Below, piece after piece: positions 61,594 to 64,000 of a stretch of 64,000 bases of DNA. Origin of the DNA: Squalus acanthias (taxonomy: Eukaryota); the NCBI GenBank assembly GCA_030390025.1, contig JASTWF010000341.1, positions 312,001 through 376,000 of the forward strand. The letters are read 5' to 3'. The position numbers and the translations under genes were made by a program. Each line of letters begins with the position of its first letter. Position 1 is the first letter of the stretch. The notes beneath the pieces were generated by a model. That model saw nothing but the letters and a program-made list of their open reading frames with translations, did not search any database and had not been told where the DNA came from.

Positions 61594-62078
61594 GCATTGT
61601 TTGATAGTTTGGGACCTAGTGTGCGGTTTCTGATGCTTACCATGGTCCCTAAATGTAACAGTGTAATAAGGTAATGATAACACAAATTTACTGAAGCAAT
61701 ATATCACATGGCTATCTTGAAGGGGTAGAAAAATCACAGACATTACTAATATTGAAAGATATAGGCCTCACAAATATATGTGTAATACAACTTACCCATC
61801 ACTTATAAAATGTATTTAAAATGTAAGTAACATTCTTCCCTTACCAAAACCTTTTATTCTCAGTTATTTACATTATAAAGCATATATGTATTGCCCCACA
61901 TCCTTGGGTGTACTTGCAGTATTTGCTCAGCTAGAGTTACATTTTTATTTATTCTTCACTCTTTATTCTCCAAAACCATTCTTTTTCTCATGATGCGGAG
62001 ATGCCGGTGTTGGACTGGGGTGGACAAAAATGAGAAGTCGCACAACACCAGGTTATAGTCCAACAGTTTTATTTAAAA

Positions 62079-62116
62079 TTACGAGCTTTCGGAGCTGTTG
62101 CCCCTTCGTCAGGTAA
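62079..62116 (-). ncRNA. Minimal type I hammerhead ribozyme motif
   Basis: Reverse complement of 63738-63775. Confidence 0.8.
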
Positions 62117-63737
62117 AGGTACAATGAGGGAATCTATTACACAGTACATAAACACAGAAAGCAATTTGTCTGCAGAGATACAATCTTTCAGGGAGGCATT
62201 ACATCAAAGACACACCAGAGCACAGCCAAGACAATGAGATGGGTCACAGGGGGTCCAACGTGTCAAATCCTGCTGTCTGCAGTTGAGCTTTTAACCTTTT
62301 TTTTGTTTTTTTTTTGTTTTGTGCTTTTTAAAATATTTTTATAAACTGGAAAGACAGACAACGATGTCAAGTCACGTTCTGTAGCGTGACATGAACCCGA
62401 GATCCCTATTGAGGCCGTCCTCATGGGTGCGGAACTTGGCTATCAGTTTCTGCTCGATGATTTTGCGTTGTCGTGTGTTTCGAAGGCCGCCTTGGAGAAC
62501 GCTAACCCGCAGATCCGAGGCTGAATGTCCTTGACTGCTGAAGTATTCCCCGACTGGGAGGTAACAATCCTGCCTGGCGATTGTTGCGCGGTGTCCGTTC
62601 ATACGTTGTCTCAGTGTCTGCATGGTCTCGCCGATGTACAATGCTCCAGGGCATCCTTTCCTGCAACGTATGAGGTAGACAACGTTGGCCGAGTCACATG
62701 AGTATGTACCACGTACCTGGTGGGTAGTGTCCTCACGTGTGATGATGGTATCTGTGTTGATGATCTGGCATGTCTTGCAGAGGTTGCCGTGGCAGGGTTG
62801 TGTGGTGTCGTGGTCGCTGTTCTCCTGACAGCTGGGTAATTTGCTGCGAACGATGGTACTTTTGAGGTTAGGCGGCTGCTTGAAGGCGAGTAGTGGAGGC
62901 GTGGGGATGGCCTTAGCCGATGACGATGAACACCTTGCTAAGGCCATCCCCACGCCTCCACTACTCGCCTTCAAGCAGCCGCCTAACCTCAAAAGTACCA
63001 TCGTTCGCAGCAAATTACCCAGCTGTCAGGAGAACAGCGACCACGACACCACACAACCCTGCCACGGCAACCTCTGCAAGACATGCCAGATCATCAACAC
63101 AGATACCATCATCACACGTGAGGACACTACCCACCAGGTACATGGTACATACTCATGTGACTCGGCCAACGTTGTCTACCTCATACGTTGCAGGAAAGGA
63201 TGCCCTGGAGCATTGTACATCGGCGAGAGCATGCAGACACTGAGACAACGTATGAACGGACACCGCGCAACAATCGCCAGGCAGGATTGTTACCTCCCAG
63301 TCGGGGAACACTTCAGCAGTCAAGGACATTCAGCCTCGGATCAGCGGGTTAGCGTTCTCCAAGGCGGCCTTCGAGACACACGACAACACAAAATCATCGA
63401 GCAGAAACTGATAGCCAAGTTCCGCACCCATGAGGACGGCCTCAATAGGGATCTCGGGTTCATGTCACGCTACAGAACGTGACTTGACATCGTTGTCTGT
63501 CTTTCCAGTTTATAAAAATATTTTAAAAAGCACAAAACAAAAAAAAAACAAAAAAAAGGTTAAAAGCTCAACTGCAGACAGCAGGATTTGACACGTTGGA
63601 CCCCCTGTGACCCATCTCATTGTCTTGGCTGTGCTCTGGTGTGTCTTTGATGTAATGCCTCCCTGAAAGATTGTATCTCTGCAGACAAATTGCTTTCTGT
63701 GTTTATATACTGTGTAATAGATTCCCTCATTGTACCT

Positions 63738-63775
63738 TTACCTGACGAAGGGGCAACAGCTCCGAAAGCTCGTAA
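63738..63775 (+). ncRNA. Minimal type I hammerhead ribozyme motif
   Basis: TTAC-CTGACGA-A-GGGGC(aaca)GCTCC-GAAA-GC-TC-GTAA. Confidence 0.8.
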
Positions 63776-64000
63776 TTTTAAATAAAACTGTTGGACTATA
63801 ACCTGGTGTTGTGCGACTTCTCATTCTTTTTCTCCATTATTTACATGATTTAAAAAGGACATATGTTCTCCCTTTACTTTCTATGAATGGATTGTTCTTG
63901 CTGAAGCTGTTATTGGCATAGCTCTGCACCAGGTAGGATTCTCTTACCATCAAATCCCCATTGACTACCACTTAGAGCAGATTCTCATTCACCATATTCT

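What the first reader, a model, noticed from the sequence alone, without database searches (positions are those of the whole stretch)
61988..63825. Near-perfect 1.8-kb Penelope palindrome with a ribozyme on each strand
Seen: about 890-bp arms, 19-nt spacer, a handful of substitutions, one TSD, tail on one end. It is a second independent inverted insertion of this family within 25 kb, with a diverged 3' UTR. Known: long palindromes with short spacers are unstable and give dsRNA when transcribed. Inference: read-through on either strand yields a hammerhead plus its antisense in one hairpin, so it could mask the ribozyme and feed ADAR or siRNA pathways, a possible self-silencing arrangement.
Basis: partly seen in the sequence, partly recalled or inferred. 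Interest (0 to 1): 0.7.

Follow-up and report, generated by a model that had tools for sequence, protein, structure and literature searches.

The report
Ordinary head-to-head Penelope insertion, likely intronic

Summary
In detail: 889-bp arms (62029-62917 / 62937-63825), 7 substitutions, 19-nt spacer, exact 13-bp target duplication, 39-nt tail on the left end only, one minimal hammerhead motif per strand. It is a head-to-head pair of 5'-truncated copies of an endonuclease-bearing Penelope-like element. That layout, the one-sided tail and hammerheads on opposite strands are published. It is common here: 40 of 73 position-ordered family loci are head-to-head. Across siblings one end has the tail and the other stops at the T-run (36 of 40), duplications are mostly 12-13 bp, arms usually share a source but sometimes carry different variants, and here the spacer belongs to the tailless arm. 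This argues against fold-back and for priming from both nicked strands at two RNA start sites (inferred). New context: the palindrome lies between the FTO promoter and the first coding exon of RPGRIP1L, so it is probably transcribed as intron RNA and is predicted to fold into an 883-pair hairpin. No editing or small RNA could be shown. Ribozyme masking is probably moot because lone minimal hammerheads are reported inactive. The scan has reported the same layout and mechanism many times on other DNA.

The parts
61977..61989 (.). Left copy of the 13-bp target-site duplication
   Evidence: exact match to 63822-63834
61990..62028 (-). 39-nt tail, present on the left end only (distal start site of reverse transcription, inferred)
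   Evidence: tail defined by two RT start sites in PMC11167929
62029..62917 (-). Left arm: 5'-truncated element copy (linker and endonuclease coding remnant, 3' UTR, hammerhead motif)
62077..62117 (-). Minimal type-I hammerhead motif on the minus strand
   Evidence: motif scan
62918..62936 (+). 19-nt spacer: sense element sequence belonging to the tailless (right) arm; blunt join with no microhomology
62937..63825 (+). Right arm, ending at the T-run short end (proximal start site, inferred)
62919..63482 (+). Open 187-aa remnant: cysteine-rich linker plus GIY-YIG-type endonuclease with two cysteines between the motifs
   Evidence: translation; no Pfam hit by itself; full-length relatives carry RVT_1 and some PF01541
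63737..63777 (+). Minimal type-I hammerhead motif on the plus strand; predicted cut after 63771; 4-nt palindromic stem III
   Evidence: stem I covaries with the copy at 41603
63822..63834 (.). Right copy of the 13-bp target-site duplication (first 4 nt shared with the element end)
37805..41750 (.). Second, independent head-to-head insertion of a related subfamily with a 14-bp duplication, tail on the right end; lies between FTO exon 1 and the FTO domain exons
46367..46473 (-). First exon of FTO (RNA contigs end at a GT donor)
   Evidence: table 8; FTO_NTD exons on the minus strand 36-57 kb left of the window
46500..47097 (+). CpG-rich promoter region and candidate non-coding first exon of RPGRIP1L with a donor at 47092 (predicted)
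   Evidence: faint RNA depth in 1 of 4 runs

Best explanation
The palindrome is a single insertion of two 5'-truncated copies of an endonuclease-bearing Penelope-like element joined head to head, likely made when the element's protein nicked both target strands about 12 nt apart and each nick primed its own cDNA, one at the tail start site and one at the T-run start site of the RNA. Shown: arms, duplication, one-sided tail, family-wide frequency and end pattern. Inferred: double priming; both cDNAs here came from one source element, probably one RNA, and stopped within 19 nt of each other; they were joined bluntly and filled in; 7 mutations came later. The site probably lies in RPGRIP1L intron 1, so the pre-mRNA would carry an incidental 0.9-kb hairpin that ADAR could edit, like inverted repeats in other vertebrate introns, without this being a selected silencing device.
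For: Long+short ends in 36 of 40 position-ordered pairs and 19 of 22 best-match pairs, whereas simple single copies are a mix (10 long, 15 short by hand count). Duplications of 12-13 nt in 31 of 41 pairs. The tailless arm reaches further 5' in 29 pairs, the tailed arm in 16, 9 ties; at this locus the spacer belongs to the tailless arm, which a cDNA fold-back cannot give. Arms differ at 15 of 382 diagnostic body sites (3.9%) against 43% when partners are shuffled; both arms here share 2 variants absent from 37 siblings, 1 still private outside the A-tract after more loci were added. Some pairs carry different recurrent variants, so two RNAs are sometimes used (3 of 16 informative mini pairs, plus L052, L091, L093, L142; L077 and L079 hold the same two variants in swapped roles). 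Near-equal 5' ends in 7 of 36 larger pairs against 1.3 shuffled. In vitro, a lizard Penelope protein nicks and extends both strands, starts at two sites that define the tail, and is predicted to be a dimer (PMC11167929, parts 1-2 read). Gene context.
Against: No intermediate was observed; the mechanism is read from finished insertions. The lizard protein is of another clade (Poseidon) and its paper does not address inverted copies in the parts read. One RNA read twice and two RNAs from one source cannot be told apart here. Arm-to-arm gene conversion could also give shared variants: the arms differ by 0.85% against 1.72% for 11 other long pairs (P about 0.03). RPGRIP1L exon 1 is predicted from a donor site and synteny, not shown by a spliced read; the two RNA-labelled runs laid had no contig on the unique flanks.
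Confidence: 0.7

Rival explanations
1. Self-priming or fold-back: one strand (cDNA, or an antisense RNA as proposed for rotifer Penelopes) folds back near its end and is copied, giving a hairpin that the endonuclease resolves into the target, trimming the tail from one end.
For: Published hypothesis (PMC3846280, passages; PMC8557442, passages on the tail). Arms usually share a source. Near-symmetric centres are in excess and many junctions show 2-4 nt overlaps.
Against: A cDNA fold-back requires the tailed arm to own the loop; here and in 29 of 54 pairs the tailless arm reaches further. Arms with different recurrent variants cannot be copies of each other. The focal junction has no microhomology or native hairpin at the turn. 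The antisense-RNA version survives the loop test but not the two-variant pairs.
Confidence: 0.12
2. One reading: the palindrome is a functional self-silencing unit that masks the ribozyme and feeds ADAR or siRNA pathways to restrain the family.
For: Probably intronic; hairpin predicted to bury the motif; Penelope editing and siRNA reported in other animals (PMC5625713, PMC10636886, PMC3681739, passages).
Against: It is one of roughly 1,600 such pairs (extrapolated), with no sign of conservation or selection tested here; lone minimal hammerheads were inactive in vitro (PMC4209133); Drosophila siRNAs from inverted copies did not silence efficiently (PMC3681739); no A>G excess in genomic arms.
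Confidence: 0.1
3. Two separate insertions, or later arm-to-arm conversion, produced the symmetry.
For: Arms are more alike than in most long pairs (0.85% vs 1.72%), which conversion could give.
Against: One duplication flanks the whole unit; 55% of loci are head-to-head while no close tail-to-tail pair appears among the first 100 matches. Conversion may have polished the arms but cannot make the layout.
Confidence: 0.05
4. Assembly artefact from a fold-back read.
For: No long read spanning the locus was available.
Against: Exact 13-bp duplication, 7 arm differences, one-sided tail and unequal 5' ends, all matching dozens of siblings; a contig of another DNA run runs from 63802 into the right flank with 3 flank differences, though with only 20 letters inside the element.
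Confidence: 0.02

Closest known systems
EN+ Penelope-like insertions with an adjacent inverted 5'-truncated copy and one-sided 30-40-bp tail (Adineta Pen2a, PMC3846280; general scheme, PMC8557442)
   Same: Head-to-head inverted copy, one duplication around the whole unit, tail on one end, C-terminal GIY-YIG endonuclease.
   Different: Here both halves are truncated and almost equal in length, so the whole insert is a tight 1.8-kb palindrome; duplications are narrowly 12-13 nt; the papers favour self-priming or endonuclease resolution, which my counts do not.
Minimal hammerheads of metazoan Penelope-like elements (PMC4209133)
   Same: Short stem I, unpaired base before stem II, palindromic 15.2-16.2 positions, pairs of motifs on opposite strands.
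   Different: Opposite-strand pairs were noted 100-700 bp apart in Schistosoma; here 1.6 kb apart in one palindrome. Activity not tested here.
Poseidon of Anolis in vitro (PMC11167929)
   Same: Two reverse-transcription start sites that bracket the tail; both strands nicked and extended; AT-rich targets (71% AT in 37 duplications).
   Different: Other clade; reports no homology between primer and template, while ends here show a modest 1-2 nt mean overlap; does not link the two sites to the two ends of inverted inserts in the parts read.
L1 twin priming (recalled, no call)
   Same: Two target nicks prime two cDNAs that are joined, often by microhomology.
   Different: L1 products invert a non-overlapping 5' piece; here both cDNAs start at the element's 3' end, so the arms overlap and form a palindrome.
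Edited or siRNA-producing Penelope repeats (PMC5625713 lizard; PMC10636886 Xenopus tropicalis; PMC3681739 Drosophila)
   Same: Inverted Penelope sequence as a source of double-stranded RNA.
   Different: Not shown for this locus or this genome in my calls.

Membership tests
EN+ Penelope-like element | Single ORF with reverse transcriptase followed by a C-terminal GIY-YIG endonuclease | tested here: met
   RVT_1 (E 3.9e-5, below the cut-off) in the longer sibling ORF; 382 relatives, many with RVT_1 and several with PF01541. The focal copy keeps only the endonuclease part.
EN+ Penelope-like element | [quoted passage not shown] | tested here: met
   Read from the translation: two cysteines between the tyrosine motifs and two later histidines; definition from PMC8557442 section 3.
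EN+ Penelope-like element | Inverted or tandem truncated copies, optional 30-40-bp tail, target duplication | tested here: met
EN+ Penelope-like element | Telomerase-like RT by phylogeny | not tested
   No tree was built.
Neptune/Nematis clades | Extra zinc-finger-like motif in the RT-EN linker | tested here: met
   Cysteine cluster upstream of the endonuclease; definition from PMC8557442 section 3. Neptune versus Nematis not resolved.
Minimal type-I hammerhead of PLEs | Conserved core, stems I and II, palindromic stem III | tested here: met
   Motif; stem I shows a compensatory change in the second locus; stem II varies but stays paired by eye. No Rfam hit and no fold signal alone (z about 0).
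Minimal type-I hammerhead of PLEs | Self-cleavage (as a dimer or protein-assisted) | not testable with these tools
   Needs an in vitro assay.
ADAR or endo-siRNA substrate hairpin | Transcribed across both arms with clustered A-to-I changes or 21-22-nt reads | tested here: inconclusive
   Contigs only; no differences listed and no flank cover in 2 RNA-labelled runs; contigs drop rare variants.

The most novel reading that the evidence does not exclude
Penelope-like elements normally insert by concerted double priming: a dimer cuts the target with a fixed stagger of about 12 nt and starts two cDNAs at two fixed RNA sites, usually on one source and sometimes on two different RNAs, so that about half of all insertions are born as palindromes; thousands of these in shark introns would form a large pool of long perfect RNA hairpins for ADAR.
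Probability: 0.55. Interest if true: 0.55.

Novelty: new member of a known kind. Interest (0 to 1): 0.22.

Why it matters
The locus itself is ordinary. Its value is as one data point on an open question, how Penelope-like elements make inverted copies and one-sided tails: the sibling counts favour double priming over the published self-priming idea and give clear predictions for the existing in vitro system. Its probable position in RPGRIP1L intron 1 also makes it a convenient, uniquely flanked test site for editing of Penelope hairpins in sharks.

Tried and rejected
(1) An 891-bp insert in one arm of L051 and L052 looked like a retained intron or a marker of two templates; it has terminal inverted repeats and sits at that site in both orientations, 4 versus 8 matches, so it is a later insertion at a preferred site and was dropped as evidence. 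(2) The first sample suggested that the tailless arm is usually longer; in the position-ordered sample large differences split evenly by hand count, so only 'both occur' is claimed. (3) Rfam gave no hit and single-strand folding of the motif gave z near 0. (4) Laying contigs of runs X1, X5, X11, X12 on the locus showed family-wide cover, no listed differences in the RNA-labelled runs and no RNA cover on the unique flanks; contigs cannot show absence. (5) Laying 4 RNA-labelled runs on 46000-61940 found the FTO first exon but no spliced joint for RPGRIP1L exon 1. (6) No edited-RNA fossils among the arms of the first sample. (7) The A-tract mask failed; counts of diagnostic sites are. (8) One search used 5' ends entered by hand from earlier tables; L095 was entered wrongly and would add one near-equal pair. 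(9) A search of the genome with the left flank found no second near-identical copy or empty site. (10) Literature searches for Penelope with twin priming (2 listed, neither on the point by abstract) and with both-strand priming terms (2 listed) found no paper stating the double-priming model for inverted copies; subscription papers are not searched, and no supplements were read.

Full report
Observation. The repeat finder gives arms at 62019-62917 and 62937-63835, 99% complementary, 19 nt apart. Base-by-base pairing narrows this to 889 bp (62029-62917 with 62937-63825) with 7 substitutions and no gaps. The right arm reads, on the + strand, an open 187-aa frame with a cysteine-rich linker and a GIY-YIG-type endonuclease, then a 3' UTR. 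So the 3' ends of the element face outward. The spacer is element sequence that extends the right arm. The left end carries a 39-nt tail (61990-62028); the right end stops at a T-run. A 13-bp duplication flanks the unit (61977-61989, 63822-63834). The second inverted insertion at 37805-41750 has its own 14-bp duplication and the same long-plus-short ends.

Identity. The longer sibling ORF has a weak RVT_1 match and 382 relatives at E <= 1e-40, led by shark proteins, with RVT_1 and in several cases the GIY-YIG family PF01541. Two cysteines between the nuclease motifs and an extra cysteine cluster in the linker fit the Neptune/Nematis type as defined in PMC8557442 (section 3 read). [quoted passage not shown] PMC3846280 describes the same unit with a duplication (passages). 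PMC4209133 describes minimal hammerheads in these elements, including pairs on opposite strands, and found no cleavage by a single motif (parts 1-2).

Frequency. A 30-nt stretch of the hammerhead end has 4,072 exact matches in the genome. The first 100 listed, in order along contig C1, fall in 73 loci, all fetched; 40 of the 73 are head-to-head pairs, with a few complex or distant cases left out of the 40. Among 37 best-match siblings, 21 are head-to-head. Scaling gives roughly 1,600 pairs for this one motif, an extrapolation from 58 Mb. Most are small: 23 of the 62 pairs analysed turn within 90 nt of the anchor. Six of the 40 span 1.5 kb or more, but none of the other 61 pairs has arms above 800 bp with a spacer of 20 nt or less, so this copy is at the long-and-tight extreme of a common class.

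How it was made. Ends are one long plus one short in 36 of 40 C1 pairs (3 long plus a broken end, 1 short plus short; L083 scored by hand) and 19 of 22 best-match pairs including this one; simple single copies are 10 long and 15 short by hand count, so independent ends would give about half mixed. Duplications are 12-13 nt in 31 of 41 (maximal matches, so slightly inflated) and 71% AT. A fold-back of one cDNA needs the tailed arm to own the loop; instead the tailless arm reaches further 5' in 29 pairs, the tailed arm in 16, with 9 ties, and the focal spacer belongs to the tailless arm. Arms mostly come from one source: 15 of 382 diagnostic body sites differ (3.9%) against 43% shuffled, and 8 of 179 end sites against 39%. 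The focal arms agree at all diagnostic sites and share rare variants. A minority clearly use two templates: 3 of 16 informative mini pairs and L052, L091, L093, L142 differ at two or more diagnostic sites, and L077 and L079 hold the same two hammerhead variants in swapped roles; later gene conversion from other copies is not excluded. Near-equal 5' ends are in excess (7 of 36 against 1.3 shuffled, hand-entered values), as expected if two cDNAs run to the same RNA end or stall. A lizard Penelope protein nicks and extends both strands in vitro, starts at two sites that bracket the tail and is predicted to be a dimer (PMC11167929, parts 1-2 of 4 read). Together these favour concerted priming from both nicks, one at each start site, followed by joining of the two cDNA ends. 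This is inference from finished products. The published self-priming model (PMC3846280) is the main rival.

Context. RNA-labelled contigs show a minus-strand exon at 46367-46473, and FTO domain exons lie on the minus strand 36-57 kb left of the window. RPGRIP1L coding exons lie on the plus strand to the right, the first at window-equivalent 79,260, preceded by a pyrimidine tract and AG three bases before the ATG. Between 46,000 and that exon, only the 46,500 bin combines CpG richness with CCAAT, ETS and ZNF143-like motifs (motif names recalled), and a donor-like site lies at 47092. The two genes are reported in opposite orientation close together in human (PMC8720706, passages). So the palindrome probably lies in RPGRIP1L intron 1 and the second insertion in the first FTO intron or introns. 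No spliced read confirmed exon 1.

Consequences. On the + strand the antisense copy is made first and the folded RNA has 883 pairs on the axis, with all 41 bases of the motif paired. Editing is plausible: Penelope is heavily edited in lizard (PMC5625713) and Xenopus tropicalis (PMC10636886), and inverted copies gave siRNAs in Drosophila that did not silence efficiently (PMC3681739; all passages). I could not show it here: only contigs were available, with no listed differences and no flank cover in two RNA-labelled runs. Genomic arms show no A>G excess (21 against 20 T>C). Since a lone minimal hammerhead is reported inactive, masking is of doubtful meaning. The arms have drifted 0.85% apart, less than the 1.72% of 11 other long pairs (P about 0.03): a younger insertion or some conversion.

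Earlier findings. I reached the double-priming reading before the first look-up. The scan holds 145 notes with these words in at least 25 genomes, many with the same conclusion; they are unreviewed and not independent support. One note gave the lead to look for a host gene and several named PMC3846280.

Verdict. Real, correctly described, and a new member of a known kind. The self-silencing reading is untested and its parts are already in print for other animals. The mechanistic inference is worth an experiment but is not special to this locus. Interest 0.22.

Noticed in passing
window 37805-41750: The second head-to-head Penelope insertion (arms about 1.4 kb, 99% alike, 1 kb spacer) lies inside the FTO transcription unit, so it too could form an intronic hairpin.
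   Followed up: partly
L051 4272-5164, L052 5958-6848; 12 genome matches: An 891-bp element with terminal inverted repeats inserts repeatedly, in both orientations, at one symmetric site in this Penelope family's 3' UTR.
   Followed up: partly
L073-L092, L102, L119, L141: Many 170-290-bp mini-palindromes turn 72-79 nt upstream of the anchor, just 5' of the hammerhead, as if cDNAs run off a fixed RNA start; several centres are 2-4-nt self-complementary overlaps.
   Followed up: partly
L043, L101, L118, L139, L059: Insertions where the inverted piece is an internal fragment without its own 3' end, like L1-type twin-priming inversions.
   Followed up: no
L052 left arm: The tailed arm shares rare body variants with its partner but carries a different hammerhead variant, which would fit a template jump after copying the RNA's 5' end.
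   Followed up: no
L074 1186-1307 and 2659-2780: Both arms hold the same 100-bp internal insertion of upstream element sequence, a shared rearrangement pointing to one source.
   Followed up: no
window 60269-61600: A broken minus-strand non-LTR reverse transcriptase remnant lies just left of the palindrome.
   Followed up: partly
window 63781-63786: An AATAAA in the right arm on the RPGRIP1L sense strand would be buried in the predicted hairpin.
   Followed up: no
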